Assembly: GCA_016180845.1 (NCBI GenBank)
Contig: JACPAK010000001.1
Location: forward strand, 86,836-150,835
Source: Deltaproteobacteria bacterium
GTDB taxonomy: Bacteria > UBA10199 > JACPAL01
Reading direction: 5' to 3'
Length of the DNA stretch: 64,000 nt
The stretch's first letter is position 1. Each line of letters starts with the position of its first letter. Below, in pieces: positions 18,625 to 61,748 of the stretch. The notes under the pieces are model-generated. The model worked only from the letters and a program-made list of their open reading frames with translations. It was not told the origin of the DNA and made no database searches. Position numbers and translations under genes: made by a program.

Positions 18625-21126
18625 TTAAGGAGCTTTTCCCATCCCAACCGACAGACACGACCCGGTCAGTTCCTCAATGAGATTGATCTTCAGATCATCG
18701 CCGATATTGCGAATCCGGAGTTGAGGGGTCGCATCCGGTTGGACTTCGATCGCCTCAAGTCGAAGTCGGAGCCGCTGACGGTCGAAGCCACAGGCAGCCG
18801 CCTCGCGGGGAAGGAGCGTCGGCTCTGATTCCTCGGCATCGATAAAAATCCTTTCAACAACCACACCACCCGCCTCACTGGGGGCCCTATCTTCAACACT
18901 CTCGACCGTCATCTGAATCGGCATCTTTTTCCGGACCCGGAAAGGAATCTTCACCGGTGGATCCGATAACGAAATCGCCGCCTGACCTGTCAACTCCCCT
19001 GAAAGAGACATGTGGTCAAAGAAGGCCTCCATCAATTCCAGAGAACCATCCTCGGCCGGTTGAATCTTCAGACGATGCCCCATAAAACGGGCATTCGTAA
19101 TATTTAAACGAAGATCGTTCCATCGCACAAAGGCCTGGTGTGTGGAAAAAACAGCCCCACCCGGATGTTCTGCGAGAATTTCAACCTCTCGACGTTGTGG
19201 GACGATCTGAACCGAGCCTTCGACATCCAGATCCGCTTCGGCAACCCTCGTTGAGAAAATTCCCTCACGACTCCTGTTACTGACCCGTAGACCAAGGGTT
19301 GGTAAATCGGCATGCAGCTTGGCATTGCTAATAGAAATACGAGTATGATTCGGATTTTTCTCATCGGAACCTATGGAGAGAGGCGCGATGCCGGCAAGGG
19401 GACGAAATTTAATCTGCCCTAATCCCTGAATAGCGCCATCTGGAAAGTGATACGAGACAACCCCATCCATCTGGCTCGTGATGATCCCCTCGAAGCGGGG
19501 TCTCCCATTCACAACCTGAAAGTGGACATCGGCCAGACCGGCCCCTTCGGGGATTTCATTCAACCACTTATGGTCTCCCTCGAATTGCCGTCGTTTTGCG
19601 ACAGTATGCAATGAAACCCCATGCCCATCATATTTGAGCTCGCCGGTTCGAAGCTGTTCAATCGAGACATCAGGGGTCAGACCATCAAGTCGGACGGTAA
19701 AATTCTTCACCTCACCACCTTGAGGGAGCTCCAGTTTGGAAAGGACCTTTCCGTTCGACCTCGAAATCTCTTCCAATTTTAATCCATCGTTATGATTCCA
19801 GCTAAAAGCAGCGGCAAGTTCCCTCGTATTCCGCGGATTCAGGGAAACCGCCACCTTCAGAGGGGTTGGGGTACGAGCGGTATTGCTGGCCCGAATCAGT
19901 CGCTCCGGATGGACGTATTCAATCGTCTTCAGACCGGCGATCTCGACTGTCGGTGAAAAAAGCCCACCGCGAATCGCAATCCGATGCCCCCCTGGCGGGA
20001 CCTTCCCCGTGAATTCAAGTCGCAACTTTCTCACCTTTTTTGGATCCATCCTTTTTTGAAGATCGGTCTCCAGATCGACCTCGATCGTGCGATTCGAAAA
20101 ATCACCGGTGATCTCGATGGTCGCTTGTTGCCAACGAGGGATTGTTCCCAAAAATTCTGAGTTGAGCTTTTTCTCTGTTTTGGCGGGTACATGAGCTGAA
20201 CTCTGAAATCCCCCCTTGCCCCCCTTTGACAAAGGGGGGTTGGGGGGATTTTCTTTCTCACTCCCCCCCAAAATCATCCCGACAAGCTGATGAAGATGCT
20301 CGGGGACGCGATAAACAGGAAGTCCCCTCTTCTCAAAATCCCTTTTCGTGATCCCACCGGCATCGAAGACCATCTTTCCCCCCTCCACCGTAAGATCAAA
20401 AAAGAGATAGTTCGCCGTGACGAAAACGGCCCTATCTGGCGTCTCCTGTTCCAATTTTTCACGATAGGACTCCACAAGAAGACCGGCCAACGGAAGGGCC
20501 GAAACCACCTGCAACCAGAGCGGGAGGATTTTTTTATCCTCATCAACCATCTCGACCGCTTTCCCACGTACAGAGACCCATGGGCCAACAATCGGAATAC
20601 CTGTAAAAAATTTTAGCCACGGCTTGAGCGGGATCGGACCGACCGGTGGTTTTGAGACAAGGCGAATCTCTCTGATTTCTCCTCCCTCCCCAACCTCAGC
20701 GACAAACTTGAGTTGGAAGGGGGACTGGGGGAGATCGGCCTCCAAGGGAAGTTGGACCTCGGCACGGATCTTCAAGTTCGGAACTGGCGAAGCTTCTCCA
20801 GATGCGGTTTCGAAAAGTCCTCGCACAAGTCGTTCGACAAAGGCGCTTCGCGGTTCCTCAACAACTGCTTTGTCCCGAAATCGCGCAGCGGAAACAGCAA
20901 CCGGGGGTCTTTCGCAATAAGGTTTTGAGGGAGTTGCTTGGCAATAATAATCTCTCTGACCGATCCCAAAGTGTTCCCTCGGAAGGTCCGAGAACCTGTC
21001 TGAGACCCACCTTGAAACCGAACGATTTTCCGCAGGGAAGCCTTGGACCGGAGGAAAATCGTTCGATGGTGCCGGGCGAGTTTCGCAGGACCTGGAGAGA
21101 GGACACGAGGGATCGGTCGGCCTCAT
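18625..21126 (-). CDS. large hypothetical protein (833 aa), beta-rich, no recognised domain
   Basis: Long uninterrupted ORF whose start overlaps the upstream gene's stop in an ATGA. An internal hydrophobic segment ILPLWLQVVSALPLAGLLV is present. Two in-frame palindromic repeat insertions. Confidence 0.5.
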   Translation of the reverse strand: MRPTDPSCPLSRSCETRPAPSNDFPPVQGFPAENRSVSRWVSDRFSDLPREHFGIGQRDYYCQATPSKPYCERPPVAVSAARFRDKAVVEEPRSAFVERLVRGLFETASGEASPVPNLKIRAEVQLPLEADLPQSPFQLKFVAEVGEGGEIREIRLVSKPPVGPIPLKPWLKFFTGIPIVGPWVSVRGKAVEMVDEDKKILPLWLQVVSALPLAGLLVESYREKLEQETPDRAVFVTANYLFFDLTVEGGKMVFDAGGITKRDFEKRGLPVYRVPEHLHQLVGMILGGSEKENPPNPPLSKGGKGGFQSSAHVPAKTEKKLNSEFLGTIPRWQQATIEITGDFSNRTIEVDLETDLQKRMDPKKVRKLRLEFTGKVPPGGHRIAIRGGLFSPTVEIAGLKTIEYVHPERLIRASNTARTPTPLKVAVSLNPRNTRELAAAFSWNHNDGLKLEEISRSNGKVLSKLELPQGGEVKNFTVRLDGLTPDVSIEQLRTGELKYDGHGVSLHTVAKRRQFEGDHKWLNEIPEGAGLADVHFQVVNGRPRFEGIITSQMDGVVSYHFPDGAIQGLGQIKFRPLAGIAPLSIGSDEKNPNHTRISISNAKLHADLPTLGLRVSNRSREGIFSTRVAEADLDVEGSVQIVPQRREVEILAEHPGGAVFSTHQAFVRWNDLRLNITNARFMGHRLKIQPAEDGSLELMEAFFDHMSLSGELTGQAAISLSDPPVKIPFRVRKKMPIQMTVESVEDRAPSEAGGVVVERIFIDAEESEPTLLPREAAACGFDRQRLRLRLEAIEVQPDATPQLRIRNIGDDLKINLIEELTGSCLSVGMGKAP
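20206..20252. repeat. family-1 palindromic repeat (aaatccccccTTGcccccctttgaCaaaggggggTTGgggggatttt), copy 1, intragenic and in frame
   Basis: Read directly. A near-identical copy sits at 63710-63760. Here it encodes ENPPNPPLSKGGKGG within the 833-aa ORF. Confidence 0.7.
21018..21066. repeat. family-2 hairpin repeat (13-14-bp arms ccgaacgattttcc / ggaaaatcgttcg around a 21-nt spacer), copy 1, intragenic and in frame
   Basis: Perfect inverted arms at 21019-21031 and 21053-21065. A second copy at 62277-62325 has the spacer in reverse-complement orientation. Here it encodes NDFPPVQGFPAENRS. Confidence 0.7.
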
Positions 21127-23948
21127 TGTTTATTCTCCAATGGCTTCCTTAACAACGACTCTCGAGTCAGTGGCAGCTTACTTCCACACCTCTTCAGATA
21201 AAACCACTTCCCATCTTTCTGAACCAATTCGACCTTATCTCCCAAAAGTGAAGCGGCCTGAGGATTCACAAAACCGGAGAAACAGAGACCACCGATCGTG
21301 TCTGTTCGTAACTGGCCCCCACGGATCCTTGCCGGCTCATTCAAAAGAACCTCAATGCCTCGAGCAAGAGTAAATTCTCTTCTCTTTTTCCCTATCCAGC
21401 TCCTAAACCCAACCTCCCCATGAACAAAACCGCTTGGATTTTTTTGAGGACGAATGGATCTCCTCTTTAAATCGAAGGGGATAGCGAGACCCCCTTCAAT
21501 CTGAGTCGTCACAACATACTGATCGGGTGATTCTCGATTGTAAATCCACAATTTGAGGGATGATGCCGCCGGTCTTGACAAAAAGCTCACGGCACCATTT
21601 CGGACAGAGAATTGCCCACGGTAATCCAACGCTCCCTGGCCCCAGAAAGGATGCCTCGTTGTTGGTTCAATCCCAAAAAAGGCCCTAAAACCCTCTTCGT
21701 GCCATGGGATCAGCAATTTGCCATGAAAATTGACCTGATCTCCGACAGATCCTTTCGCACAAAAGAGCTCCGCTCTTCTATTGTTCCCCTCCCAAACACA
21801 GTTGAGATCACCCACAACCCTCTCTCCTCCCCTGTAAATGTTAGAGGGGGTACGAACCGTCCGGAAGGATGAGTCTTGCTTCACCCCATTGAGAATCTCC
21901 GTCTTCCCCTCCGGCTTAAATTTCACCTCTCCCTCCGTAAATCCACGAAAGGTCCAGTCAGAAAAAATCTGTTCGAAGGCTGGGACAATTTTTAACCGAA
22001 TGGTTTCAAAATCACTCGAACCAAAGAGGGCCGTCGCCAAACTCACCACGGGCGAAGCGGCTGGCTGATTATTGAGTGACAAATGACCATCCCAGGTCAT
22101 CCGACAGGAGTTTCCTTCAGGCTCGGCCCAAAGCTGCCCACCGGAATCAAAAACCAATTCCTGTTTGAATAACGGGACCGACTCTGCCTGGAGATTAACG
22201 AGGAGGTGAGGCCCATGCCCCGGCTCCGGAGGGACCCCGCTAAGTGACGCCCGAATCCCACGAACTTCATAAGGAGTCCCCCCCTCTGAGGTCACTCTCA
22301 GATTGGCCTCTGCCTCCGCCTTCAACGTGATGAGGTTCAAAGGCGATCGGACCCGCACCACGAGGTCCGAAAAATCAAGATTGTTCTTCGGTCCATGCGA
22401 AAAGGCGAACCCCCGAAGCTCAATCTCCTCGCTCATCGGCCCCTCGACCCGATCAGGGTCGTAGTCAAAAGAGACATAACCGTCTTCCACCAGACCGCCC
22501 GTCATCGTTTCGCCTACCTGAAATTGAATCGGTCCCCCATCTGCCGATCCAATCGCAAGCTCATCGATTTCGAGCCAACTCCTCTGTAAAACAGGTTTGT
22601 CTCCAGACAGGTCCAACTGAACAGAGCTATTCAGGCGACCCGACGAGCGAAGAGATCCCAACTGAGAGGTTGGAATATTTTCCACAACATACTCGAGATT
22701 ATCGAAATAGATTTCGGCAAGATTCGGATGTCGCAGGACAATCTCGATCTCGCCTCGAAGGGCCAACGGTACCGATGTGGGAAGGGTCACATCAATATCC
22801 GACAGGACGATGGAGGTTGTTTTATCCGCTGCATTGTACGACCAATGCAGATCAAGCGTCCCTTCCGCATTTGGAATCAGGAGACTCGCCGGAAGTTTTG
22901 GGAAATTGGCGTAAGAATCCCCCTTGATCCCCTCAAAATCAAACTTGAGGAAACGTCCGGATTTTAAGGTTTCCATCAATCTCTGCCAATCAAGATGAAG
23001 GTAGCTCCTCCCGACAAGCTCATGGTTTGGTGGAGGTCTCGAATCAACCGTAATCTGTAAATCATCGAGGGTCCCGATGGGACCCTGGACCCATTTGGAA
23101 CGCTCGCCAAACCACTCCTCAATGACCTGTCTCAAGCCTGACGAGTCCTGATCGACCCAGCTTCCCATGAGCGCCTTCAAAAATCGGCGACCAAAAGATT
23201 CTTTGTAAACGGCATTTTGCCTCTGTACTGAAAATGGCTGGGGATCGCTCCTCTCTGCTGGATCAGGATAGGCGGTCAAAGCCCTCGTCCTCGGTATCGG
23301 TGTCAAAAGAGATCGCCCGAGACCGAACAAATTCAACCCCTCGGTCACCTTGACTGTCGGGAGTCCCCGATGTGCGAGATGCGGAACAACGAGTCGCGCC
23401 TGATCTGTTTCAGAAAACCTGCTGACAAAGATATCTGAAAATCGTCTCTTCCTCCTCGTCAGCCCCGCCACATCAAAACCGTAAAAAACCTCAAGCCCAT
23501 CGGTCCAAACATCCCCATCGATCTTGAACGTGTCATATCGAGACCGAGCGTTGAAGGCGAGCTCCGCCCCCTCATCCCAAGTCACATCTCCCGTCCAGCT
23601 ATCCCTTTCGACCCTTCCCTCATGAAATCTTGCCCTCACGTAATAATCGTGATTCCCAAAAAAATGATAGGTGATCGGTAAGGATCTCCGAAAGCTCATC
23701 GGCTCTCGGCGGTCGAGAAGTTTCTCCACTATCCCTTGTTTCGTTGGATAGGCAAAACCGGCTTGCTCAGCAGCTACTGCAAAGAGATCAAGCAGACTCC
23801 TGTTCGGTGTCTCAGGAGGAGCTGCGTCAAAGGCAGAACAAAAAAGGTCTTCGAAACGAGAAGGTGCGGGGGAACCATTGACCGTAGCTGTCACACCCAG
23901 ACAATCGGGTGCGATCGGAAGGAGGTTGCTACCGAAACCGAAGCACAA
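21123..23948 (-). CDS. large hypothetical protein (941 aa), no recognised domain (isolated GNHD tetrapeptide only)
   Basis: Long ORF whose start overlaps the 3' end of the MFS gene. ATGA coupling to the 833-aa gene downstream. Confidence 0.5.
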   Translation of the reverse strand: MCFGFGSNLLPIAPDCLGVTATVNGSPAPSRFEDLFCSAFDAAPPETPNRSLLDLFAVAAEQAGFAYPTKQGIVEKLLDRREPMSFRRSLPITYHFFGNHDYYVRARFHEGRVERDSWTGDVTWDEGAELAFNARSRYDTFKIDGDVWTDGLEVFYGFDVAGLTRRKRRFSDIFVSRFSETDQARLVVPHLAHRGLPTVKVTEGLNLFGLGRSLLTPIPRTRALTAYPDPAERSDPQPFSVQRQNAVYKESFGRRFLKALMGSWVDQDSSGLRQVIEEWFGERSKWVQGPIGTLDDLQITVDSRPPPNHELVGRSYLHLDWQRLMETLKSGRFLKFDFEGIKGDSYANFPKLPASLLIPNAEGTLDLHWSYNAADKTTSIVLSDIDVTLPTSVPLALRGEIEIVLRHPNLAEIYFDNLEYVVENIPTSQLGSLRSSGRLNSSVQLDLSGDKPVLQRSWLEIDELAIGSADGGPIQFQVGETMTGGLVEDGYVSFDYDPDRVEGPMSEEIELRGFAFSHGPKNNLDFSDLVVRVRSPLNLITLKAEAEANLRVTSEGGTPYEVRGIRASLSGVPPEPGHGPHLLVNLQAESVPLFKQELVFDSGGQLWAEPEGNSCRMTWDGHLSLNNQPAASPVVSLATALFGSSDFETIRLKIVPAFEQIFSDWTFRGFTEGEVKFKPEGKTEILNGVKQDSSFRTVRTPSNIYRGGERVVGDLNCVWEGNNRRAELFCAKGSVGDQVNFHGKLLIPWHEEGFRAFFGIEPTTRHPFWGQGALDYRGQFSVRNGAVSFLSRPAASSLKLWIYNRESPDQYVVTTQIEGGLAIPFDLKRRSIRPQKNPSGFVHGEVGFRSWIGKKRREFTLARGIEVLLNEPARIRGGQLRTDTIGGLCFSGFVNPQAASLLGDKVELVQKDGKWFYLKRCGSKLPLTRESLLRKPLENKQ

Positions 23949-26050: not shown

Positions 26051-27091
26051 AAGGATCTTTCGATTCATCGATGAGGTTGGGAATCGATCGATCTCCTCCG
26101 GATGAATCCATTGAGATTTCATTCGTGGAATTCGGCTCATTTGGCAGAGATAAGGGGTAATGACTAATCTCTTATTCAAAACAGAGTGCCGAATCGATCC
26201 CAAAGCACGAATCGGTCTGAAACCGAAATCCCTGACTAATCTCTCAGCCCCCCCCTCCACCATCGGAAATTCCCACATCTCTTTCAAGATCCCCTTCGCA
26301 GGCCTGCGAACCATGAGGAGAGAATCACCTTTTTGAATCAAGGCTGCCGTCATCGTGATCTTCTGAGCAGGAGCCCTTTTTGCCAATCGTGGATACAGAT
26401 CCTGTCTCCCCTTTTTACGCGCCTCACACTCATCGTAGACAGGGCAGACCAAACAGGCGGGTCGTCTCGGTGTACAAATTGTCGCACCGAGTTCCATGAG
26501 CGCCTGATTAAAATCGCCAACATCCCTATCGGGCAAAATCAGCGCGGCGAGACCCCAAAAGATCTTCTGGCCTGCAGGACTTTTGGGATCACTTCCGATC
26601 AAAAAGAGTCGTGACAGGACCCGAACCACATTCCCATCGACTACCGGGACCCTTTCCCCAAACGCGATCGAGGCAATCGCCCCGGCGGTGTAGCGACCGA
26701 TGCCGGGGAGTTGCTGCCAGTCTATTCGCTCGGACTGGCAAAGCCAGATCCTCGCTTGATTCGAGAGAGATACCGCTCTCCCTCGAGCTCCCATCTGATC
26801 AACGATTATCTTAGCTGCCTTCAATAGATTCCTCGCTCGCGAATAGTACCCGAGCCCCGACCAATACCGTAGCACCTCATCCTCTTCTGCCACTGCAAGT
26901 GATTCGATCGTCGGAAATCGTTTCAAAAATTTCTCATAATACGGAATCACCGTCTCGACCGTCGTCTGCTGGAGCATGATCTCCGAAACCCAGATCCGGT
27001 AAGGGTCTTTCGTCTTACGCCAAGGGAGGTCTCGTCGATGGGTGCGATACCAGTGAAGAAGCTTGTCTCCCCCGCGAAACTTTTTCATCAT
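26036..27091 (-). CDS. mutY: A/G-specific adenine DNA glycosylase MutY
   Basis: HhH-GPD motif LPGIGRYTAGAI, the FeS cluster cysteines CTPRRPACLVCPVYDEC, and a C-terminal NUDIX-like domain. Confidence 0.85.
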   Translation of the reverse strand: MMKKFRGGDKLLHWYRTHRRDLPWRKTKDPYRIWVSEIMLQQTTVETVIPYYEKFLKRFPTIESLAVAEEDEVLRYWSGLGYYSRARNLLKAAKIIVDQMGARGRAVSLSNQARIWLCQSERIDWQQLPGIGRYTAGAIASIAFGERVPVVDGNVVRVLSRLFLIGSDPKSPAGQKIFWGLAALILPDRDVGDFNQALMELGATICTPRRPACLVCPVYDECEARKKGRQDLYPRLAKRAPAQKITMTAALIQKGDSLLMVRRPAKGILKEMWEFPMVEGGAERLVRDFGFRPIRALGSIRHSVLNKRLVITPYLCQMSRIPRMKSQWIHPEEIDRFPTSSMNRKILSKLL

Positions 27092-28491
27092 TGCTGAGGA
27101 TTATTATTGGGAGGTGTTGGGTCAACGACCGTTTGTGAAATCTCTGTCGCGGTGACTGCTGCCCCGGAGACAGGTGTGAAGGAGGTATTAATCTTGAATG
27201 TGGTGTCTCCGTTGATTTCAGCGGGAAGTTGGAAGGCGACATTTTTTGAAATCTCGGCTCCTTTGGCAAGATTTGACATACACTCAATCTTCTGCCCCAG
27301 ATTGTTACACCCTTCAGGAGTCGATTGAATCGTAGAAGAGCCGGTCAATTCGACAATCAATTTTGCCCCTGTCAGATCCCTCTGACTGTTATTGCGAGCG
27401 AGTGCGCGAACAGTCACCGTCTGGCCGAGACCCAAGGATCCTGAGAGAATGGAGTGTTCCACAACCAACTCAGGTTGTTTTTCGACCTTGAAGAGGTGTT
27501 TATGGAGGGTAATGGTTTGATCGTCCGGACAAATCGCTGCCGGAGTAAAGGCAATCTCCCCCGAGGCGCGATCATTTAATTGGAGACAGACCGGATCACA
27601 CTTGATCTCCCCTCCCGGAATTCCTGTCGACCCACCGGTGGAAGAGGGCATGTCTACCGGAATCGTCATCTGCCGTGTCACGACATCAAACTGGAGTCCT
27701 CCTTGAGGGGAACCGCACGGCTCCAACCCTTCGGGAAGGGCAAAAGGTTCCAATTTGCATCGCACGGGGTAACAAACCGAGGCGTTGGTCCGCTCACCCA
27801 CCGTCATTGTCTTGGTCTCAGGGACAGCGATCTTGGCAATGATCTTGTCATATTTCGGAGCAACCGCGACATTGATCTCCACAACACCTATCCCCTCACG
27901 ACAGGCCTCCAAGGCACCCACCTGTTGTTTCACCCCAGAATCTGTTGTCGTCGTTTTGGAATCTGATGTGTCAGCTTTTTCGTCAGTCGTCTTTTTCTGA
28001 TCCTCGTTTCCTGAACCTTGCTGGCTTCCGGAGGTTGTCTCACCGGATGTCGTACCGCCTGATGCTGTTTGACCCGACTGCTGCTGGCTTCCCCCTGCCG
28101 TCCCCTGATTCGTCTCTAACGCCGCGAGTTGAACTTGCTGTGGTCTCGGCAAAATCGCAACTGCCTGAGAGATCAGCGAGGCCTGCTGGATCTTCACACA
28201 ATACTTGGCCTTTCCCGGGGTTTTGGCCTCTGTTGAATTTCCTGAATCTCCAGAAGGTTCGATCTTCGACGGATCAATTTCCAGTTTAAACTTTCCATCC
28301 CGATCGGTCACCACGTCTCCATGGGCCTTTCCTTCGCGATTGACCGAGATGATAACACCAGCCAAGACAGGTTCGGTCTCTTCCTTGTTAAGATTATTGT
28401 TTTCATCGAGATAGATCTGACCGTTTATCACGGTGCCACAACCGGCTGTCAGGAGGATAAAAAGGGAAATTCCAAGAAGTCGCCTATCCAT
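27088..28491 (-). CDS. lipoprotein with carboxypeptidase-regulatory-like domain, S/T/Q-rich linker and DUF11-like C-terminal repeat
   Basis: Lipobox LLTAGC after MDRRLLGISLFI. Start chosen at the internal ATG at 28491. A low-complexity TAGGSQQQSGQTASGG segment is present. Confidence 0.5.
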   Translation of the reverse strand: MDRRLLGISLFILLTAGCGTVINGQIYLDENNNLNKEETEPVLAGVIISVNREGKAHGDVVTDRDGKFKLEIDPSKIEPSGDSGNSTEAKTPGKAKYCVKIQQASLISQAVAILPRPQQVQLAALETNQGTAGGSQQQSGQTASGGTTSGETTSGSQQGSGNEDQKKTTDEKADTSDSKTTTTDSGVKQQVGALEACREGIGVVEINVAVAPKYDKIIAKIAVPETKTMTVGERTNASVCYPVRCKLEPFALPEGLEPCGSPQGGLQFDVVTRQMTIPVDMPSSTGGSTGIPGGEIKCDPVCLQLNDRASGEIAFTPAAICPDDQTITLHKHLFKVEKQPELVVEHSILSGSLGLGQTVTVRALARNNSQRDLTGAKLIVELTGSSTIQSTPEGCNNLGQKIECMSNLAKGAEISKNVAFQLPAEINGDTTFKINTSFTPVSGAAVTATEISQTVVDPTPPNNNPQQ

Positions 28492-28513
28492 CACGGTTTG
28501 AGAGTATACAGAC

Positions 28514-29539
28514 TTATGTCTCCTTCTGCAAGTAAACTGTCCGAACGGGAAACGGGATCGAGATCCCTTCCTTCTGATAACGCTGATGGAGCCTCTTGAT
28601 GAATTCATGTTTGAGCAGGAACTGATCGGTATATTCCCGAGCCCTGAGAGCGACGGAAAAATTAATACTCGAATCCCCAAAGGTATGAAAGCGAACCACC
28701 GGTTCGAATCCCGGAATACCCCCCGTCACCGATTTCATCACGTCTCGCGCAATCTCGACTGTCACTGTCTCCACCTTTTCCAATGAACTGGAATAATCAA
28801 CACCCACGTCAACCGTGAAGGCCATCTCCTTATCGGGGTAATGGTAGTTCGTAATGACACTGCCGGACAATTTAGAGTTCGGAATGACAACGATATTGTT
28901 CGGAAGAAGCCGAATCCGGACCCCCCTCCAGCCGATCGACTCAACGTAACCGCAATCACCTGATTCGAGCTTCACGAAGTCCCCCACTCGAACCGGCTTG
29001 TCGATCAGGATGTAAAATCCTGAGAAAAGGTTAGCGAGCGCATCCTGTAGGGCCAAGGCAATTGCGATACTCCCCACACCCAGTGAAGCGATGATCGGCG
29101 TGATCGAGATCCCCGCCGTATCCAGGAAGATCAGCAGAAAAAGGGCATAGACGCCGATCGTGATAAAAACACGAATCAGGCTGGAATAATTTTTAAAAGA
29201 CTCGTGATTCGAAACATAGCGACGATGGAGCTCGAGAAGGATCTTCTGAATAAAGAGGGCAAACCCGAAGATCGCAAGGAGCCGCGCCAAGAGTCCGATT
29301 GTCCTTTGCCAATTATCAGAAAGGGACAAAAAAGGTGGGAGAAGCCCAACCACTCCAGCCAACAAAAAAAGCGTGACGGGCCGATCCAACGCCTCAACAA
29401 TCAGATCATCCCATTTCCCTTCCGTCCGTTCGGTCCATTTTCTGAGCAAACGAAAGATAAATTTCTTAAGCAGAAAGAGGACAACGGCACCCGCCGGAAT
29501 AATAAGGAGCGAACCCCACTGAGGTAGATCGTGTGACAT
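28514..29539 (-). CDS. mechanosensitive ion channel, MscS family
   Basis: TM3 and beta-domain signature GVGSIAIALALQDALANLFSGFYILIDKPVRVGDFV. Confidence 0.85.
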   Translation of the reverse strand: MSHDLPQWGSLLIIPAGAVVLFLLKKFIFRLLRKWTERTEGKWDDLIVEALDRPVTLFLLAGVVGLLPPFLSLSDNWQRTIGLLARLLAIFGFALFIQKILLELHRRYVSNHESFKNYSSLIRVFITIGVYALFLLIFLDTAGISITPIIASLGVGSIAIALALQDALANLFSGFYILIDKPVRVGDFVKLESGDCGYVESIGWRGVRIRLLPNNIVVIPNSKLSGSVITNYHYPDKEMAFTVDVGVDYSSSLEKVETVTVEIARDVMKSVTGGIPGFEPVVRFHTFGDSSINFSVALRAREYTDQFLLKHEFIKRLHQRYQKEGISIPFPVRTVYLQKET

Positions 29540-31915: not shown

Positions 31916-32626
31916 ATGAGATTACGAACTTTACTGGGTATCGCAGCTGGCCTTGGAGGAGGTGCAGCCCTGTTAACTGTAGCATACCAGCGGCGACAGG
32001 CCGCTTCTCGTGAAATTCATAAGATGATGATCAGTCGGGATAGGATCAATTTTTATGTCAGCGATGTCAGCTATGGAAGGCCGTGTGTGAGCTCAGATGG
32101 AGGAGACTCAAACAGGACTTATTACAGCAGGACTTATTACAGTCAGATCGTCGGTAGCGCCCTCGCCCCTCATGAGCCTACCTATATCACTCCTAAAGGT
32201 TCGGAACCTACTTGCGGGTGGACTAATGAAACATATGAAGTGACTGATCCTCATCGACAAATATTCGAAACCGCCCAACGTCATTGGGGTCGCCTACAAA
32301 AGTTTTTTACCTTAACTGAAATCCGCTTGGCCTCATCCTGCCATCCCCTGACCGAGGCCGATTGGAGAGATCAACTTCACTTGAAACCGGAACCGATCGT
32401 TGACTCGGCGGTGATCTGTAAATTGGGCGCGTCACAAGCCCAACCCAATGGCGAGGCAACAGTTGTCGTAGAGTCTTTACACAATGGACGCAGCTTCTCA
32501 ACCCGCGTTTATCTGAATGTCGACGGCGCCCCTCAACCTCCTCTTGTCTGGATGGACGACTCTTGGTCTACCAATGTCAAGAAGGTGAGGGAACTACACG
32601 CCACAGGATCGTCGGGAAACGACTAA
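31916..32626 (+). CDS. hypothetical membrane-anchored or secreted protein
   Basis: RBS AAGGAGG precedes the ATG at 31916. N-terminal hydrophobic segment LLGIAAGLGGGAALL. No known domain. Confidence 0.45.
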   Translation: MRLRTLLGIAAGLGGGAALLTVAYQRRQAASREIHKMMISRDRINFYVSDVSYGRPCVSSDGGDSNRTYYSRTYYSQIVGSALAPHEPTYITPKGSEPTCGWTNETYEVTDPHRQIFETAQRHWGRLQKFFTLTEIRLASSCHPLTEADWRDQLHLKPEPIVDSAVICKLGASQAQPNGEATVVVESLHNGRSFSTRVYLNVDGAPQPPLVWMDDSWSTNVKKVRELHATGSSGND

Positions 32627-34194
32627 AGAAGCCGCTCGTACTGCTCAATCCCATACTTCCAAACCGGCACGCCGCAGTACCGATCCCCCTCGGGACAGTA
32701 CGGTTTGATCCCCGCCCCTTTTCTTAAATAACAAGGGGCAAGGATATGTCGTGCAATCCGCGGATGGATCTCCTGCACCTGTTTCAGTTCATCGATCGTC
32801 GCGAAGAAGATCTCCTCTTGCGCATCGTAACAGGCGCGCGTGCGCCATTTATGATGCAGATTCAAGAGATCCCCCGACTCCTGAAACCGGATCGGAAAGG
32901 CGTTCGGCAAGAGGTAGAGCGCGAATTCAGGAGAGACCCCATCACTCAAGAGATCATTGATCCCTCGGAAAATCTTCCGCATCGCCTCTTCGTAAACTTG
33001 TCGAGGCCCGTCGTTCTCCCGAATCAGCATTGGCGAAATATAATCCGGCTCTCCGGTATAATGAGCGAACAGGATCGGGCGCGAGGCCGGGGTCATCCGG
33101 TGACGTTGATCCTGCGAGTCAGCGGTATGCGAGATCTTTTTCTGAAAGGTGTAGTGAGGATGGGCCATCGTCCGTGTCAGCTTGGAGAGCGTTGTGAGAT
33201 TGAGCGTATCTCCAAAATAGGAATTCTTTGCCGGATTCATAACAAGATCGATCGCCTCATCATCGACAAGTTGCGCTTTGAAAAGGCCCAGCACCTCCCG
33301 CACCGACTGGGCTAGGACCGCCTCGGCGTTTGATTTGTAGTCAACGAGCCTTGAATCATGCCCGTCGAGAGATTGATCAAACTCCCGGATAAATTCCTTA
33401 TTTCTTGCGGGATTAAATCTGCCAAATTTTTCTGAAAAGAACCGGTACTCAGGCGTCTCTTCCAGAGGAATTGGATCTTTGAGCTCCTTTTTAAAATCAG
33501 GATCCGCCTCGCAGACCGCATCAACCATCTTCTGGACCACATAACGCTGCTCAAAAGGGGTATCGAACAATTCTGACAATCGGTAGTAGCGCAAAAGTGT
33601 CAGGGCACTTACCGTATGGTACATGTAAGAATGTGTCGCGACCGGCAGGATATACCGAGCGATTTCATAGGCCCGTTTTTTCAGTTTCGCTTCGTAAATC
33701 TTTTCTGACTTTTCCCGTGCCGGAAAAATTTTAAAGAATCTTCGCCGAATATCCGGAAGAAGAAGCTCAATGAGTCGATTATAGGTCTCCATCTGGAGGT
33801 TGACGACCTCAAGATACCGATCCTTCTGCCGATCCTTGAGTGGAGGGATCGTGAAATGGCCGGGGGCGACCTTCACGTATCTCTGACTCACCTGTTCTGA
33901 ATTGTAAAAAGGATGGCTGTGCAGAAACGACCAGATGAAGTGGCGTGAAATTTTATCGAGCGCAAAGACAAAACTTCCATGCTGCCGGGTTGTCAGATGT
34001 CCCGCCTCGAGGGTTGACTTCGCAATCTTATCCCGAAGCGCAAGGGCCGCTGAATCCTTAACGACATCCGCCGTCGTCAGGATCCCCTTCGAGGAGTAAC
34101 AGGTCCTCGCCGCAGCGATAGAGAGATTGTATGGTTCCCCAATAAACCCAGCTAAGGTAACAACAGGTGGCTCTGAGAGGAAGACTTCTGTCAT
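32623..34194 (-). CDS. thyX: FAD-dependent thymidylate synthase ThyX, long (523-aa) form
   Basis: ThyX signatures AARTCYSS, GH..T..HGSFVF and the RH...S....SQRY motif (ISRHFIWSFLHSHPFYNSEQVSQRYV). Confidence 0.7.
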   Translation of the reverse strand: MTEVFLSEPPVVTLAGFIGEPYNLSIAAARTCYSSKGILTTADVVKDSAALALRDKIAKSTLEAGHLTTRQHGSFVFALDKISRHFIWSFLHSHPFYNSEQVSQRYVKVAPGHFTIPPLKDRQKDRYLEVVNLQMETYNRLIELLLPDIRRRFFKIFPAREKSEKIYEAKLKKRAYEIARYILPVATHSYMYHTVSALTLLRYYRLSELFDTPFEQRYVVQKMVDAVCEADPDFKKELKDPIPLEETPEYRFFSEKFGRFNPARNKEFIREFDQSLDGHDSRLVDYKSNAEAVLAQSVREVLGLFKAQLVDDEAIDLVMNPAKNSYFGDTLNLTTLSKLTRTMAHPHYTFQKKISHTADSQDQRHRMTPASRPILFAHYTGEPDYISPMLIRENDGPRQVYEEAMRKIFRGINDLLSDGVSPEFALYLLPNAFPIRFQESGDLLNLHHKWRTRACYDAQEEIFFATIDELKQVQEIHPRIARHILAPCYLRKGAGIKPYCPEGDRYCGVPVWKYGIEQYERLL

Positions 34195-34954: not shown

Positions 34955-36607
34955 TCAAACTACTTCTGTCAACTCTTCCTCTTCAGAATCGCGTCTCCGA
35001 TCTTGGTGGTCTCCCTGTTGTTCTTGACCCTCTGCCGCCTCTTCAGGTTCTGGGACCTCGGGCAGGTCCTCGGAAACTTCTTCGGCATGGATCTCATACT
35101 CCAGCACCTGAGCCACTGCCTCTATTTGGGTGCTGTAATCACTCCCTCGAGGCTTGAGGGCGCTTGTGTCCATTGGGAAACTGACGATGCGAGGCTGCAT
35201 CTGAGGGGTGAAACAAAAGTAGGTAGCCGATGATTCTGGAGCAAGGGGTGAAAATTCCACAGAACCAAAAAGGCCTCTGGATCGCCCTCCCTCAAGTAGC
35301 AATTTCCCTTCCCCTCTCCGCTCCCCTGACAACGAAACTCGTTTTCGTTTCAATAAAGAAGTCCTACCCCTCGGAGCTGGAATGACTGAAGGGCTATCCT
35401 GCCCAGGGAGATCAGATGCCGCCAAGACCAAAGATTGCTGTTGGATCAAGGAAGGGATAAAACCGGCCTCGGGAGGAAGGGCCCCTGAAACCCCATTCCC
35501 CCTTTCCGACAACTCATACGGCATCAGATAGGAATTTCTAGCTTTAGCAAAAAGAGGAGCAAGCCCCTCTCTCGTCCCTGCAGGTGAGGCCTCTCTCTCG
35601 GAATTTTCCAACACAACTCTCGTCTCTGCATCTCCTCCATCCGGAGTCAAAGAATCCTCTCTCATCGGGAGGAGTGGTGGAACCGCTTCCCCTCTCCTCT
35701 CCCTCACAGGAGCAGGCGGTGGAGAACTGTCACCCCTTAAATATCGATTTGTCAAAAGGATCCAGGTCGCTACAGGCCTGTCAGCCTCTAGTATTTGACC
35801 GCTGCGATCACGATATGGGTATTGAAAAGTAAGGGCTCTTGGCTGTTCGATAGCGATCGGACGTCCAATCTTCGCATCCACCATCCTGACGGTATGAAGG
35901 ATATGAATCCCTTTTCCCTGAGGAGCTAATGGGAAGGATCTGCCAAGAGAAGAAGTACTTTTTTGTGGAGATAAAGCCGGTGGACGGGTCGAAGGAGCAA
36001 TCTCTATCGGTTTCTGGAATAAACTCACTCGTCCCTGTTGAGACCATCGGCCACTCACCAAACTAAATTTTTCTAAAGAGGGATCTGAGAAAACGTCAGG
36101 AGACGACACCCTCTGCAATAAATAGGCTACCGCGGCAGTTGCCACTGCAGTGGGAAGCCATCTCACAAGAGGGGTAACGATTCTTTCAAGATGAAGATGG
36201 GTCGCTCCTTTGAAAAGACTCCTCAGACCTGTTACGATAGTCTCTGTATCTACTTTTTTCGAAAGAAAATAGGCACCGGCAATCATCGCCGCCCCAGCAA
36301 CAGCAATTCCTGCTACAGCCATCACTTTTTTAAGATCAAGTTCTTCTTCCTCAACTTGAACGCGAGAAGTCGCTGAGGAGGCAGACTCAGCCGGAACAAA
36401 ACGGTCAATGGGAACTGGTTTTTCAGAAGCGGGAACCCCTGGGACAGGAAGCGAAGCAACAACCGCCTCGATCAAACGAGTCCCGATTGGGGAATAGACC
36501 TCACCCATAAATTCTTTTCCTCTCACATTAAATATCGGGTAACCCTCTGAAATGTTGTTACAAAAACCTGCTTGACAATCATTTTTTCTCACCCTAACCT
36601 TCACCAC
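34955..36607 (-). CDS. Pro/Ser/Glu-rich low-complexity hypothetical protein with one predicted TM helix
   Basis: 550-aa ORF. TM segment [21 protein letters not shown]. Otherwise disordered composition. Start uncertain. Divergent from rpsU. Confidence 0.35.
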
Positions 36608-54277: not shown

Positions 54278-57200
54278 CTAGTTCCAGCTGCTGCGAGTTT
54301 CGGCAGTCCGGGAGAGTGCAATAGCAACGCCTGGATATTGTCCCATCAGATGTTCCAAGGCATCGGCAGGAAGGCGGAGGACTGTGGCATCAGTTGAAGC
54401 GACCACTGTAGCCGAACGTGGGGCATTATTGACGAGGGCCATCTCACCGAACATTCCACCAGGCCCTTGCCTGTTGATTGAAAAACCTAGGGGGTTGCGA
54501 ACGTCGAACTGGCCTGACTGAACGAGGTAGACATCACAATCCCTTGCCCCACGCCGGATCAATCTTTCCCCTTTTTTGACGGTCTGGATCTCTCCCACTG
54601 AAAAAAGGAGATCCTGGAGAGAGGGGGGAAGACTGGCCAACGATGAGAGACTGATCGCTTGTGGGGCGACACGACGACCATTTCTGACCCGACGCACTTT
54701 TTCCTGAAGAAGTTGACGGGTGTAGGGGGTCAGCCGCGCGGTATCAACCTCGAGAAGAAGTGAGGGGGTCGTTGTCCGAACATCGGCGTTTCTCGGCTCA
54801 TCCACTAACGCCGCCTCTCCAAAAAGACCGTTCGGGCGAAGCGCTATGCTGGATCGGCTCCTGCTCACCTCCACCTCTCCATCGAGAAGGATATAAAATT
54901 GAGATTCCGTACTCCCCTCCCGAATAAACAGCTCTCCAGCATCCATCGCACGAATACGACCTGTACGTAGGAGCTCGTCCTTGAGCGGAGGGTGGAGAGA
55001 ATCAAGAATCGGAAGCTGATCCAATGCCCTGCGGGCAAAATCACTCTGGGAGGACAAGGGGGCGTCGGGGAGATGACCGGAAAGATCGATGAACCCTTCA
55101 TGGCCCGCCTTCCACTTGGGAACCCTCGCCTTCTCAGCAGCCTTGCTATCAATATGATAGACAAAGACGTTCGAGGTATTAGCCCCATCGGCTACCAATC
55201 GATCAAGAAGCGTTCTTGTCGATTCTGGTGGCGTGTGGATCGTGGGGACACCACCTTCGACGAGGATCACGGGTGGAGGAGTCTCTTTCCCATATTTTTT
55301 CAGGACCTCAGCATAACGGATAATATTTTGAGCCCGTTCCCGACTCATGATCGGCGACTTTCCATCCTTCCCTTCCGTATGCTTCCAGATCCCTTCAACA
55401 TCGGCATAGCTATCCCCCGTAAAACAGACAACCGGTTTCCCGTGGACGAGATCAGGTCTCGTGTAGATCTCAAAGCCGATCGTCGGGATCACATGGAACG
55501 AATAATCGGCACGAAAATGAAGCCCGTTGATCTCTGTAAACCTCTGAGGAAGCAGAGGGACGAAATTCCATTGGATCAGTCCCTCACCCCTCCCTCCAAG
55601 GGCCAGTTGATATTGTCTCTGAAGCATCTTGAAAATAGTCGGTGTTGTATGAACCTTGATCTTCGGCAAGGCACGCAAAAGCTCAGGTATCGCCGGTCCA
55701 TAATGATCGGAATGTCCATGCGTCAAGACAACCCCATCAATCGCCTCGAGAGGAAGCCCGTTCTGGGCAAAATATTCGAGGGTATTCGTGGGGGGATCGA
55801 CCAGAACGACCTTCCCACGGTTCCAGATCATGAAGCCGCTTGTATTCTCACCTAAGGCATACCCGTGTCCTGTCCCGAGGGGCCACAGTGCTGGCTTTCC
55901 TTCTTGTAAAACCTCTCTCCTCCTCTTTTGTAACTCCGGATCCTTCCAGGCGGTTTGGGGTTGTGGAACAGGAGGTTTCGGCAGATATTTCCTGAGATCG
56001 AGTCTGCCGATAAATTTCCCTTGATCGGTAATATCATAAGTCAGCGGTGCAATTTTTCTGATAACCACACCATTCTTTCCGAAGACCCCATCTCCATCGA
56101 AACAATCGATCTCCCTTCGAGCCGAAGCAGGTGCGGCACCAAATCCCTCTCGCATTTCTCGAGGAAGGTCGGGGACTCCTGTAGCATCAGGGGGATATTC
56201 ATCCTGGACTTGTTGGCGCAAGGTCGCATCATCGGGTCCATCGTGGGCCAGATTGAGCATTTTCTCCATCTGACCTGCCGTTTTGATGTCTGGCGCAACA
56301 AAATGATACCTCGTCCCCTTGGTGACATAAAAATTGTACTGGGGGAAATCGGCTGCCAGGAGACCGACTGTCTTCGGCACAAAATCGAGGTCAACGACAC
56401 AGGTCAATGGGACCAAATGATGCATCCTGTCTTTCGGTATCTCTGCCCCACCATTTTTTAGATAGAGTTCGAGGACATCTTTGTTGCTCCACATCGGCAG
56501 ACCAAACTGGAAAAGCCCCCCTTCCGTTTTGACCATGATCCCCCCATGCGGGAGTTGAGTGACTTTATCAGAGTCGATTTCTGGAACTGCCCTTTGATGG
56601 AAGGAGGGATCAACCCGGCGCAGAAAGGTACCAACCGGACGACCGAGGATCATCGAGGCGAGCCCTTCCCCCATTTCCATCTTCATCCGTTCTCTCATCG
56701 TCAAGTCGGATCGGGGATCACCATAAGACTCTTCAAGCAAAATTCCGGTCCCAATAGAAAAGGATGCCTGAACCGGTTGCAACAGAAGGTCCTGCAATAA
56801 TCTCTGCCCAAAACCATATTGATGCAGAAGCCCCATCCCCAAAAGGGTCGAAGGACAGGAGTAAATAAATCCGTCAACCCAGGCCCGCCCAAAGGAGGGG
56901 GCGATGCTTTTTTCATCAGATCGAAACTGCTGAACCACCGCCATCGCCATCGAGGAAACGACGGAGAGAAAAATATTGGAAAGGGCAAATGAGGCGGCGC
57001 GATGATTTCCCGGCCCCAATAAACGATTGGCCGCTTTGAGGCAGAGGGGTGTTATTCGATTCGTCAACAAACCAAGACCAGCAATAATGCTGCCGGTCTC
57101 TCCCCACCGTGAGAGGGAAAACAGCTTATCCTCCCACGCCTCATAGGAACTGATATACTGTCGTCCTGTCGCCGATGGATTCGCGGCCAAAAGCCCATGC

Positions 57201-57298
57201 GTGAGACGGTATTCCTCGGTAGCTGGTCGGTAGCGACCAAGGTGATCCTGCGGCAAGATGGGTCGGGCGCCCTCCATGATTGTTAGAAGATCGACCAC
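54278..57298 (-). CDS. multidomain protein: N-terminal unknown region, then MBL-fold metallohydrolase (THGHSDH), then two C-terminal cyclic-nucleotide-binding domains
   Basis: HxHxDH motif VVLTHGHSDHYG. Two cNMP-binding signatures FGEAALVDEPRNADVRT and FGEMALVNNAPRSATVV. 1006 aa in total. Confidence 0.7.
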   Translation of the reverse strand: MVDLLTIMEGARPILPQDHLGRYRPATEEYRLTHGLLAANPSATGRQYISSYEAWEDKLFSLSRWGETGSIIAGLGLLTNRITPLCLKAANRLLGPGNHRAASFALSNIFLSVVSSMAMAVVQQFRSDEKSIAPSFGRAWVDGFIYSCPSTLLGMGLLHQYGFGQRLLQDLLLQPVQASFSIGTGILLEESYGDPRSDLTMRERMKMEMGEGLASMILGRPVGTFLRRVDPSFHQRAVPEIDSDKVTQLPHGGIMVKTEGGLFQFGLPMWSNKDVLELYLKNGGAEIPKDRMHHLVPLTCVVDLDFVPKTVGLLAADFPQYNFYVTKGTRYHFVAPDIKTAGQMEKMLNLAHDGPDDATLRQQVQDEYPPDATGVPDLPREMREGFGAAPASARREIDCFDGDGVFGKNGVVIRKIAPLTYDITDQGKFIGRLDLRKYLPKPPVPQPQTAWKDPELQKRRREVLQEGKPALWPLGTGHGYALGENTSGFMIWNRGKVVLVDPPTNTLEYFAQNGLPLEAIDGVVLTHGHSDHYGPAIPELLRALPKIKVHTTPTIFKMLQRQYQLALGGRGEGLIQWNFVPLLPQRFTEINGLHFRADYSFHVIPTIGFEIYTRPDLVHGKPVVCFTGDSYADVEGIWKHTEGKDGKSPIMSRERAQNIIRYAEVLKKYGKETPPPVILVEGGVPTIHTPPESTRTLLDRLVADGANTSNVFVYHIDSKAAEKARVPKWKAGHEGFIDLSGHLPDAPLSSQSDFARRALDQLPILDSLHPPLKDELLRTGRIRAMDAGELFIREGSTESQFYILLDGEVEVSRSRSSIALRPNGLFGEAALVDEPRNADVRTTTPSLLLEVDTARLTPYTRQLLQEKVRRVRNGRRVAPQAISLSSLASLPPSLQDLLFSVGEIQTVKKGERLIRRGARDCDVYLVQSGQFDVRNPLGFSINRQGPGGMFGEMALVNNAPRSATVVASTDATVLRLPADALEHLMGQYPGVAIALSRTAETRSSWN

Positions 57299-60641: not shown

Positions 60642-61748
60642 TTAATCCTGCCCTACCGCTTTTCCGGAATTAAAGGTCAGGTCATCGAGGATAAATTCCG
60701 CACTGCCCGATGTCGACTCGCTTTGAGCGGTTATAGCCAGAAAGGCACCTGTTGGCATGTTGGTCAAAGAGGTGTCCGATCCGATCTGAACGAAGGAACC
60801 AGAGGAGAGTTTTCTAAAGCACTGAAATGTCGACCCCGACCGAACGACTCGGATCGAAATATTCGGTGTAAAACTTCCGGAAGCACTGCCTGGCTGATCG
60901 CAAGCGCTATCTGTGCTGAAACCCCCATTGGAAGAGCCCTTATAGCAATCGATCGACGTCAAAGCACACTGAAAGAATTTATCTTTGTTCTCCTCAAGAG
61001 AGGAGACGACGATCAATTTCACCGCGGCATTCATGCTGTCCACAGTCATGGAACTCACTGTAATCTGGGCATCGAAATCCCCCGAAACCTCCTTGGAGGC
61101 AGAAGGGAGGATATTGAAGGCGTCGAATTTGGAATTGTAGGTGGTCATATCAAACTTCAACTGACCCCCCGTGATCGTAACCGCCGCCGCCTCGCTGTTG
61201 GCGACAGTGTCTGTCTGATTCGTGGTATTGTTAAACTTGTAACAACTCGACGTGTCCTTCGAATAATCATCGGAGCTGGTACAGGAGGTCGAAGAGGAGG
61301 CGCCGTCTGTTGTTGTTACCGTCACTGTCGTCTCAGCCACTTCATTGGAACTTTTATCAACAACCCCTGAGACCAAAAAGGTACATGAGGCCCCGGCGGG
61401 CAGGGCCTGACTCGGCAGGAAGCAGCATTCATTGTCGACCACCGCATCGGTATCGACCGAGGTGTTGATCGATCCGGAGGTTGCTGTCCCATCACAGATC
61501 AGGGTAAGGGTTTCGGTGGTACAGGTAGTCAGGTCGACAGATTCTGTAAATTTGACGCAAAAATCGGTAGAGGGGCTCACGGTATCATTCGTCTGGATCG
61601 TATTTCCATCCGAGTCATTTGCCGTCCCTGTCGAAGAGGCGGCTGCATCGTCATCTGCACCGGAATCTGTTTTTTTGGAATTATCGACAAGCTCCGAGGC
61701 ACAGGCAAAAAGGAATAACACCACGAGAATGAGTGATACCTTTGACAC
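60642..61748 (-). CDS. Ser/Thr-rich lipoprotein of unknown function
   Basis: Signal peptide plus lipobox (VLFLFACAS). Strongly S/T/D-rich low-complexity body. Confidence 0.45.
   Translation of the reverse strand: MSKVSLILVVLFLFACASELVDNSKKTDSGADDDAAASSTGTANDSDGNTIQTNDTVSPSTDFCVKFTESVDLTTCTTETLTLICDGTATSGSINTSVDTDAVVDNECCFLPSQALPAGASCTFLVSGVVDKSSNEVAETTVTVTTTDGASSSTSCTSSDDYSKDTSSCYKFNNTTNQTDTVANSEAAAVTITGGQLKFDMTTYNSKFDAFNILPSASKEVSGDFDAQITVSSMTVDSMNAAVKLIVVSSLEENKDKFFQCALTSIDCYKGSSNGGFSTDSACDQPGSASGSFTPNISIRVVRSGSTFQCFRKLSSGSFVQIGSDTSLTNMPTGAFLAITAQSESTSGSAEFILDDLTFNSGKAVGQD

What the first reader, a model, noticed from the sequence alone, without database searches (positions are those of the whole stretch)
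54278..57298. 1006-aa fusion of an MBL-fold metallohydrolase with tandem cyclic-nucleotide-binding domains and a ~500-aa unknown N-terminal region
The HxHxDH motif (THGHSDH) resembles class-II 3',5'-cNMP phosphodiesterases and other MBL hydrolases. Two CAP-family cNMP-binding domains follow (FGEAALV...R and FGEMALV...R). A hydrolase that could itself be gated by cAMP or cGMP suggests feedback-regulated cyclic-nucleotide turnover or a cNMP-controlled nuclease or lactonase. The large N-terminal region has no motif I can name. It lies next to bolA and obg.
Basis: partly seen in the sequence, partly recalled or inferred. Interest (0 to 1): 0.5.

Follow-up and report, generated by a model that had tools for sequence, protein, structure and literature searches.

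The report
Cyclic-nucleotide-gated MBL phosphodiesterase homologue
This gene encodes a divergent bacterial relative of the slime-mould enzymes GbpA/GbpB, which destroy cAMP or cGMP and are switched on by them; it is a new member of a known enzyme type, and its "unknown" front half turns out to include a second, inactive copy of the catalytic fold.

Summary
The ORF (54278-57298, minus strand, 1006 aa; probable true start ATG 57277, 999 aa) is real. It contains an MBL-fold domain with every metal ligand intact, followed by two cNMP-binding domains that both have canonical phosphate-binding cassettes.

The layout pseudo-MBL + MBL + 2 CNB recurs in at least 72 bacterial species (Myxococcota, Spirochaetota, Planctomycetota and others) and in eukaryotes. 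One of these is the Cavenderia orthologue of Dictyostelium PdeE/GbpB (hhalign probability 100%, E 2e-88). PdeD and PdeE are experimentally cGMP- or cAMP-stimulated phosphodiesterases.

The window protein belongs to a divergent subclade (about 26% identity to canonical members, HGHSDHYG instead of HCHADHD[AS]G). Its substrate remains inferred. The adjacency to obg and bolA is not conserved.

The parts
54278..57298 (-). Whole ORF: 1006 aa from GTG 57298, or 999 aa from ATG 57277. Stop codon at 54278-54280.
   Evidence: ORF list. The identical 999-aa protein P0001 occurs in three metagenome runs in the same gene context. Candidate start codons were examined.
56588..57298 (-). N-terminal module (residues 1-237): lineage-specific, predicted helical, with two conserved hydrophobic helices (about 104-122 and 140-161). 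It may be a membrane-associated hairpin. Function unknown.
   Evidence: pLDDT is below 50. Only P0002 and the unrelated-architecture protein P0088 share it (41% identity over residues 15-226). Hydropathy scans support the two helices. It is absent from the canonical ~725-aa family members.
55895..56572 (-). Domain X (residues 243-468): a conserved degenerate MBL-like (pseudo-MBL) domain without HxHxDH. Family-invariant residues are G252, G253, Q264, G266, D274, G312, F318, Y321 and E381; K273 is near-invariant (99%) and position 251 is R in 98% of members (H in the window protein).
55064..55894 (-). Catalytic MBL-fold domain (residues 469-745). Invariant residues are H478, D501, H527, H529, D531, H532, H602, D629, R655, H688 and H715; E681 is near-invariant (98%).
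55703..55720 (-). HxHxDH metal-binding motif (HGHSDH, residues 527-532).
   Evidence: Translation. Invariant in 82 of 82 family sequences. The extended motif is HGH[ST]DH[YF]G in all 9 subclade sequences (window protein included) and HCHADHD[AS]G in 66 of the 73 canonical sequences.
54683..55045 (-). cNMP-binding domain A (residues 752-872), with phosphate-binding cassette FGEAALVDEPRNAD.
   Evidence: Pfam cNMP_binding and PKA-R/PKG matches. G827, E828, R836 and A838 are conserved in every aligned sequence that has a residue at these positions (76-77 of 82 rows; the rest are gaps).
54290..54667 (-). cNMP-binding domain B (residues 878-1003), with phosphate-binding cassette FGEMALVNNAPRSATV (the same pattern as the MloK1 channel, from memory).
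   Evidence: Pfam best stretch 905-988. Matches to MloK1 and SthK CNB domains. The cassette is canonical in the window's subclade but degenerate (no Arg) in the canonical family members inspected.

Best explanation
The gene encodes a cyclic-nucleotide-activated 3',5'-cyclic-nucleotide phosphodiesterase of the MBL type, called 'class IIb' in the Dictyostelium literature (the GbpA/PdeD and GbpB/PdeE family).

Proposed mechanism:
- A binuclear metal centre in the C-terminal MBL domain hydrolyses cAMP and/or cGMP to the 5'-NMP. The ligands are H527, H529, D531, H532, H602 and D629, plus H688 and/or H715.
- The two C-terminal cNMP-binding domains sense the same kind of nucleotide and raise catalytic activity when occupied. 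Rising cNMP therefore accelerates its own removal (negative feedback).
- The conserved N-terminal pseudo-MBL domain packs against the catalytic domain as an intramolecular substitute for the second protomer of the homodimeric relatives (Apyc1, YhfI, RNase Z). It probably contributes invariant residues (Y321, E381, K273, D274, Q264) to substrate binding.
- The extra 237-residue N-terminal module of this lineage may tether the enzyme to the membrane.

Shown here: the domain composition, intact catalytic and cNMP-binding residues, the fold relationships, and homology to the dictyostelid enzyme.

Inferred: the substrate, the direction of regulation (activation), the pseudo-dimer contact, and any membrane association.
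For: Domains. Confident model for residues 240-1003 (pLDDT about 90, pTM 0.69).

All MBL motif residues are invariant across 82 family sequences.

The CNB-A cassette is conserved in every aligned sequence that has residues there, and the CNB-B cassette is canonical in this subclade.

The same pseudo-MBL + MBL + 2 CNB layout occurs in 72 of 80 GTDB species loci and in eukaryotes.

[quoted passage not shown] BLASTP gives 38% identity, E 1e-23. hhalign gives probability 100%, E 2.2e-88 over 453 columns. The X domain alone gives probability 93%.

Literature: PdeD is a cGMP-stimulated cGMP PDE and PdeE a cAMP-stimulated cAMP PDE. Both have the motif HCHADHDS and a lactamase_B-like fold (PMC3188802). 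GbpA and GbpB are activated through two downstream cNB domains (PMC11988041). HCHADHD[AS] is the motif in 66 of 82 family sequences.

[quoted passage not shown] This motivates the pseudo-dimer role proposed for X.
Against: No biochemistry exists for any bacterial member in the literature I could search.

The window protein belongs to a divergent subclade. It shares a median 26% identity with canonical members over the core. It carries 20 subclade-specific replacements at positions otherwise 85% or more conserved. These include PPETIKD to PMWSNKD in X, and C528G and D533Y flanking the metal motif. Substrate specificity could therefore have shifted.

Five subclade members lack CNB domains altogether, so regulation is not obligatory for the catalytic core.

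No adenylate or guanylate cyclase is seen in the 64-kb window.

The link to the experimentally studied D. discoideum proteins runs through an orthologue named by annotation and through a published motif, not through direct alignment to PdeD or PdeE.

Confidence: 0.6

Rival explanations
1. The protein is a cNMP-gated hydrolase with the same architecture but a different substrate. Candidates are RNA or a tRNA-like 3' end (as for RNase Z), a 2',3'-cyclic or ribosyl-1,2-cyclic phosphodiester (as for PhnP), or a membrane-proximal phosphodiester. In this reading cAMP or cGMP is only the regulatory ligand, not the substrate.
Confidence: 0.22
2. The protein is a component or regulator of a cyclic-nucleotide antiphage system (Pycsar-like). 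It would be either a cNMP-activated MBL nuclease effector, or a host enzyme that clears cCMP and cUMP signals.
For: The PADLOC models PycTIR (E 3e-29), TIR 'Effector' and PycC match the protein. The closest structure to the catalytic domain is the anti-Pycsar enzyme Apyc1. The Apyc1 paper raises the possibility that host Apyc1-like enzymes regulate cNMP signalling (PMC9117128).
Against: The listed PADLOC best stretches all lie within CNB-B (residues 873-1002), and no model matches the MBL region. There is no cyclase or other defence gene next to it. The gene sits in a housekeeping string (L21-L27-obg-X-bolA-proB-proA). No conserved neighbour exists in 80 related loci. Pfam Apyc1 scores 13 bits against a cut-off of 50.
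Confidence: 0.05
3. The protein is a catalytically inert cNMP-binding scaffold or sink, that is, a pseudoenzyme.
For: The Pfam MBL models match only the first ~90 positions of their profiles. One of the two MBL-like domains (X) is clearly degenerate.
Against: Every canonical MBL metal ligand and several further polar residues are invariant or nearly so in the C-terminal MBL domain across 82 sequences from several phyla. The domain superposes on active PDEs over more than 220 residues at 2.6 A.
Confidence: 0.03

Closest known systems
Dictyostelium GbpA/PdeD (cGMP-stimulated cGMP PDE) and GbpB/PdeE (cAMP-stimulated cAMP/cGMP PDE), the 'class IIb' MBL-type phosphodiesterases
   Same: An MBL catalytic domain is followed by two cNMP-binding domains. 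The conserved N-terminal X domain is also present in the dictyostelid orthologue P0147. All metal ligands are shared. The canonical bacterial relatives carry the exact published motif HCHADHD[AS] (PMC3188802).
   Different: The window protein is bacterial and shares only about 26% identity with canonical members. Its motif is HGHSDHYG, and its X signature is PMWSNKD rather than PPETIKD. It carries an extra 237-aa N-terminal module. Both CNB cassettes look functional, whereas CNB-B is degenerate in the canonical bacterial members inspected. There is no experimental data.
Apyc1 / B. subtilis YhfI / yeast PDE1 (class II MBL-fold cNMP phosphodiesterases)
   Different: They are about 250-aa single-domain homodimers without CNB domains. 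Here a degenerate second MBL-like domain is fused in cis. Pfam Apyc1 scores 13 bits (cut-off 50), and PDEase_II is not detected.
Long-form tRNase Z (ELAC2 / yeast Trz1)
   Different: That is an RNA 3'-end endonuclease with a flexible-arm exosite and no CNB domains. Sequence scores to RNase Z models are far below threshold.
PKA regulatory subunit / PKG tandem CNB-A/CNB-B
   Same: Tandem CNB domains, with Foldseek E about 1e-16 to 1e-17 over roughly 260 columns and phmmer E 1e-21. The Gly-Glu...Arg cassettes are canonical.
   Different: The domains are attached in cis to a hydrolase rather than regulating a kinase. The relative orientation of the two domains differs from the crystal structures (rmsd 8-17 A for the pair).
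Bdellovibrio Bd1971 (cAMP-sensing EAL c-di-GMP phosphodiesterase)
   Different: The catalytic fold (EAL) and the substrate (c-di-GMP) are different.

Membership tests
GbpA/GbpB (PdeD/PdeE) MBL-type cNMP-stimulated phosphodiesterases | MBL catalytic domain with an intact HxHxDH motif and the downstream His/Asp metal ligands | tested here: met
   H527, H529, D531, H532, H602, D629, H688 and H715 are invariant in 82 family sequences, including the window protein.
GbpA/GbpB (PdeD/PdeE) MBL-type cNMP-stimulated phosphodiesterases | Two cNMP-binding domains C-terminal to the catalytic domain | tested here: met
   Pfam cNMP_binding twice. Both cassettes are canonical. The same order occurs in 72 of 80 related species loci.
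GbpA/GbpB (PdeD/PdeE) MBL-type cNMP-stimulated phosphodiesterases | Sequence homology to a dictyostelid member across the catalytic core | tested here: met
   Against the Cavenderia fasciculata PdeE orthologue P0147: BLASTP E 1e-23; profile probability 100%, E 2.2e-88; X domain probability 93%.
GbpA/GbpB (PdeD/PdeE) MBL-type cNMP-stimulated phosphodiesterases | Extended motif HCHADHDS reported for PdeD and PdeE | tested here: not met
   The window protein has HGHSDHYG. The canonical bacterial relatives (66 of 82) do have HCHADHD[AS]. The metal-binding positions themselves are all retained.
GbpA/GbpB (PdeD/PdeE) MBL-type cNMP-stimulated phosphodiesterases | cAMP/cGMP hydrolysis stimulated by cNMP binding | not testable with these tools
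   This needs enzyme assays. It is reported only for the Dictyostelium proteins (PMC3188802, PMC11988041).
Apyc1 (Pfam PF23023) | Score above the Pfam gathering threshold | tested here: not met
   13 bits against a cut-off of 50. It is nevertheless the closest solved fold.
Class IIa cNMP phosphodiesterase (Pfam PDEase_II; yeast PDE1, Vibrio CpdP type) | Match to the PDEase_II profile | tested here: not met
tRNase Z (TIGR02651 / ElaC) | Equivalog-level score | tested here: not met
   17.5 bits against a cut-off of 293.
Pycsar effector (PADLOC PycTIR and related models) | Full-length match including the effector domain, plus an adjacent cyclase | tested here: not met
   The matches involve the CNB domains and not the MBL region (best stretches 873-1002). 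No cyclase lies in the neighbourhood.

The most novel reading that the evidence does not exclude
The UBA10199-like subclade containing this protein may have re-purposed the GbpA/GbpB scaffold. It has a remodelled active-site periphery (C528G, D533Y, and PPETIKD changed to PMWSNKD in the pseudo-MBL), two fully competent cNMP sites and a new, possibly membrane-inserted N-terminal module. It could therefore be a membrane-tethered, cNMP-gated hydrolase of a substrate other than cAMP or cGMP, such as cyclic pyrimidines or another phosphodiester. The cis-fused pseudo-MBL would supply 'opposing-protomer' catalytic residues, an arrangement I found described for long-form tRNase Z but not for a cNMP phosphodiesterase.
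Probability: 0.2. Interest if true: 0.55.

Novelty: new member of a known kind. Interest (0 to 1): 0.35.

Why it matters
Cyclic-nucleotide phosphodiesterases that are switched on by their own substrate are textbook feedback devices in Dictyostelium chemotaxis. This analysis shows that the same enzyme type, including a previously unremarked degenerate second MBL domain, is widespread in bacteria. It occurs in Myxococcota, Spirochaetota including Brachyspira, Brevinema and Leptospirales, Planctomycetota and UBA10199-like lineages. There it carries only generic annotation and appears unstudied.

That gives a concrete, testable candidate for how these bacteria terminate cAMP or cGMP signals. It also suggests a structural rationale, an intramolecular pseudo-dimer, for the conserved N-terminal domain. 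For this particular gene the result is mainly a better annotation, not a new principle.

Tried and rejected
- The word-indexed homologue search with the full protein returned only 3 relatives, because CNB-sharing candidates crowd the candidate list. Re-querying with the core (residues 240-750) and running the exhaustive representative search fixed this.
- A third homologue search with a mixed bacterial and eukaryotic profile, meant to retrieve named Dictyostelium proteins, found none. The dictyostelid orthologue was instead recognised among the representative-search hits by its amino-acid composition and then by a name look-up.
- The original GbpA/GbpB papers (PMC133600, PMC133599, PMC1783984, PMC124474) are not held. 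The supplements of PMC3188802 contain no sequences.
- hhalign of domain X against the catalytic MBL profile found no sequence-level evidence of internal duplication (probability 0.3%). The pseudo-MBL assignment therefore rests on predicted structure only.
- The search for a conserved operon partner across 80 loci found none. The obg, bolA and proB adjacency occurs only in this organism.
- The promoter and terminator scan of the locus gave counts at chance level.
- No cyclase was found in the window.
- The lactonase and glyoxalase readings were dropped because the nearest folds and profiles are all phosphodiesterases.
Full report
OBSERVATION. The ORF at 54278-57298 on the minus strand exists exactly as described: 1006 aa with a GTG start. 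Pfam finds two cNMP_binding domains (E 7.7e-34) and Lactamase_B (E 1e-8). The MBL match covers only about the first 90 profile positions (residues 486-566). NCBIfam gives only sub-threshold, domain-level matches. The HxHxDH motif is HGHSDH at residues 527-532. Both CNB phosphate-binding cassettes are present. An identical protein in the public collection (P0001) starts at M8 (ATG 57277, 999 aa), and the N-terminus of the 62% homologue P0002 aligns at about that position, so ATG 57277 is the more likely start. The gene lies 24 nt downstream of obg and 33 nt upstream of bolA. It sits in a co-directional string: RNase G, L21, L27, obg, this gene, bolA, proB, proA, rsfS, gpmI. Neither gap shows promoter or terminator signals above chance, so co-transcription is plausible but only inferred.

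ANATOMY.

- Residues 1-237 are shared only with P0002 and, at 41% identity over residues 15-226, with a 520-aa protein (P0088) that has a different C-terminus. AlphaFold models this part as long helices with pLDDT below 50. Two hydrophobic helices (about 104-122 and 140-161) are conserved in all three proteins. A membrane-associated hairpin is possible but unproven.
- Residues 243-468 ("domain X") are conserved throughout the family. The invariant residues are G252, G253, Q264, G266, D274, G312, F318, Y321 and E381; K273 is near-invariant and position 251 is Arg in 98% of members (His in the window protein).
- From residue 240 onward the full-length model is confident (pLDDT about 90, pTM 0.69).

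THE FAMILY. A scan of one genome per GTDB species with the core alignment found at least 197 loci, of which 80 were fetched. Of these 80, 72 encode X + MBL + two CNB domains in proteins of about 720-750 aa, with X at the extreme N-terminus. Three are cut by contig ends and five lack CNB domains. Hosts include Polyangiaceae and Labilithrix luteola, Brevinematales, Brachyspira murdochii, Leptospirales, Planctomycetota, Desulfobacterota, Riflebacteria and Vulcanimicrobiota. The closest relatives of the window protein (43-52% identity) are UBA10199 or "Deltaproteobacteria bacterium" MAGs. Source names are generic or automatic: "cyclic nucleotide-binding domain-containing protein", "MBL fold metallo-hydrolase", "phosphoribosyl 1,2-cyclic phosphodiesterase". 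No neighbouring gene is conserved across the loci. The obg/bolA/proB context is unique to this organism, where it recurs in three metagenome runs.

LINK TO CHARACTERISED ENZYMES. The exhaustive representative search also returned eukaryotic proteins with the same layout: Paulinella, Batrachochytrium, a haptophyte, Rhodelphis and Vermistella. [quoted passage not shown] This is the dictyostelid orthologue of PdeE/GbpB.

- BLASTP of the window protein against P0147 gives 38% identity over the first half of the MBL domain (E 1e-23), plus CNB matches.
- The family core profile aligns to P0147 residues 244-746 with probability 100% and E 2.2e-88.
- The X-domain profile alone aligns to P0147 residues 242-445 with probability 93% and E 3.4e-7.

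The literature states that PdeD is a cGMP-stimulated cGMP PDE and PdeE a cAMP-stimulated cAMP PDE. Both carry the motif HCHADHDS and resemble lactamase_B (PMC3188802). GbpA and GbpB are "class IIb" MBL PDEs activated through two downstream cNB domains (PMC11988041). The motif HCHADHD[AS] is found in 66 of the 82 family sequences. The family is therefore the bacterial and eukaryotic GbpA/GbpB family.

HOW THIS MEMBER DIFFERS. The window protein belongs to a subclade of 9 of the 82 sequences. Its median identity to canonical members over the core is 26%. It has 20 subclade-specific replacements at positions otherwise 85% or more conserved. These include HCHADHD[AS]G changed to HGH[ST]DH[YF]G (C528G, D533Y) and the X signature PPETIKD changed to PMW[ST]NKD. 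The CNB-A cassette (G827, E828, R836, A838) is conserved in every aligned sequence that has residues at those positions. The CNB-B cassette lacks the Arg in the canonical members inspected and varies widely at that position across the family. It is canonical in the window protein and the other CNB-bearing subclade members (FGEMALVNNAPRSATV in the window protein). Some subclade members have lost the CNB domains and carry other long N-terminal extensions. These differences leave room for altered specificity or regulation. For that reason the confidence in "cNMP-activated cNMP phosphodiesterase" for this particular protein is 0.6.

MECHANISM. Shown here: the domain order; an intact binuclear-site ligand set; intact cNMP-binding cassettes; fold neighbours that hydrolyse cyclic nucleotides or phosphodiesters; and homology to the dictyostelid enzyme. 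Inferred: the substrate is cAMP and/or cGMP; occupancy of CNB-A (and CNB-B) activates catalysis, giving negative feedback; domain X substitutes for the second protomer of the dimeric relatives and may donate invariant Y321, E381, K273, D274 and Q264 to the active site; and the N-terminal module may localise the enzyme to the membrane.

RIVALS.
- A different phosphodiester substrate (RNase Z-like or PhnP-like) under cNMP control: confidence 0.22.
- A Pycsar-type defence role: 0.05. The PADLOC hits involve the CNB domains and not the MBL region, and there is no cyclase or defence context.
- A pseudoenzyme: 0.03.
- No cyclase is present in the window. With only 64 kb available, this says little about the rest of the genome.

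VERDICT. It is a new, divergent bacterial member of a known enzyme kind. The modest added insights are the pseudo-MBL nature of the conserved N-terminal domain and the wide, apparently unstudied bacterial distribution of the family. No paper describing a bacterial member was found in the held library, but that library omits most subscription journals.

Noticed in passing
window 18625-21126 (-), 21123-23948 (-), 27088-28680 (-), 34955-36607 (-): Four large ORFs (833, 941, 530 and 550 aa) have no Pfam match at E 1e-5. The first two overlap by 4 nt and look like an operon pair.
   Followed up: no
window 32623-34194 (-): The ThyX (Thy1) ORF is 523 aa, roughly double the usual length, and has two Thy1 stretches. 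It may be a tandem-fused flavin-dependent thymidylate synthase.
   Followed up: no
window 8188-15325 (+): A compact cluster resembling complex I or an Mrp-type membrane-bound hydrogenase: two Proton_antipo_M subunits, NADHdh, a 4L-like subunit, a fused 30-kDa + 49-kDa subunit and a 20-kDa subunit.
   Followed up: no
window 60642-61748 (-): A 368-aa Ser/Thr/Asp-rich protein with a lipoprotein-like N-terminus (LFLFACAS) and no Pfam match. It lies between RNase G and a radical-SAM + DUF2344 gene.
   Followed up: no
P0065 (Rhodelphis marinus, 1084 aa): A eukaryotic family member carries X + MBL + 2 CNB followed by what looks like a class I (HD-type) PDE domain (HNFNHA...HDVDHQG). That would put two unrelated PDE folds in one protein.
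   Followed up: no
P0088 (520 aa) versus window residues 15-226 (56621-57256): The lineage-specific N-terminal module occurs as the N-terminus of an otherwise unrelated protein, so it is a mobile domain of unknown function. It has two conserved hydrophobic helices.
   Followed up: partly
L003, L004, L006, L007, L008 (UBA10199-like MAGs); P0007, P0009, P0014, P0018: Subclade members have lost both CNB domains and/or carry a different 400-860-aa N-terminal extension. This suggests repeated swapping of regulatory modules on the same pseudo-MBL + MBL core.
   Followed up: partly
L001 (SRR12113385) versus L083 (same run): The 62% homologue P0002 and the identical protein P0001 occur in the same metagenome run in different gene contexts. 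They represent either two related organisms or paralogues.
   Followed up: no
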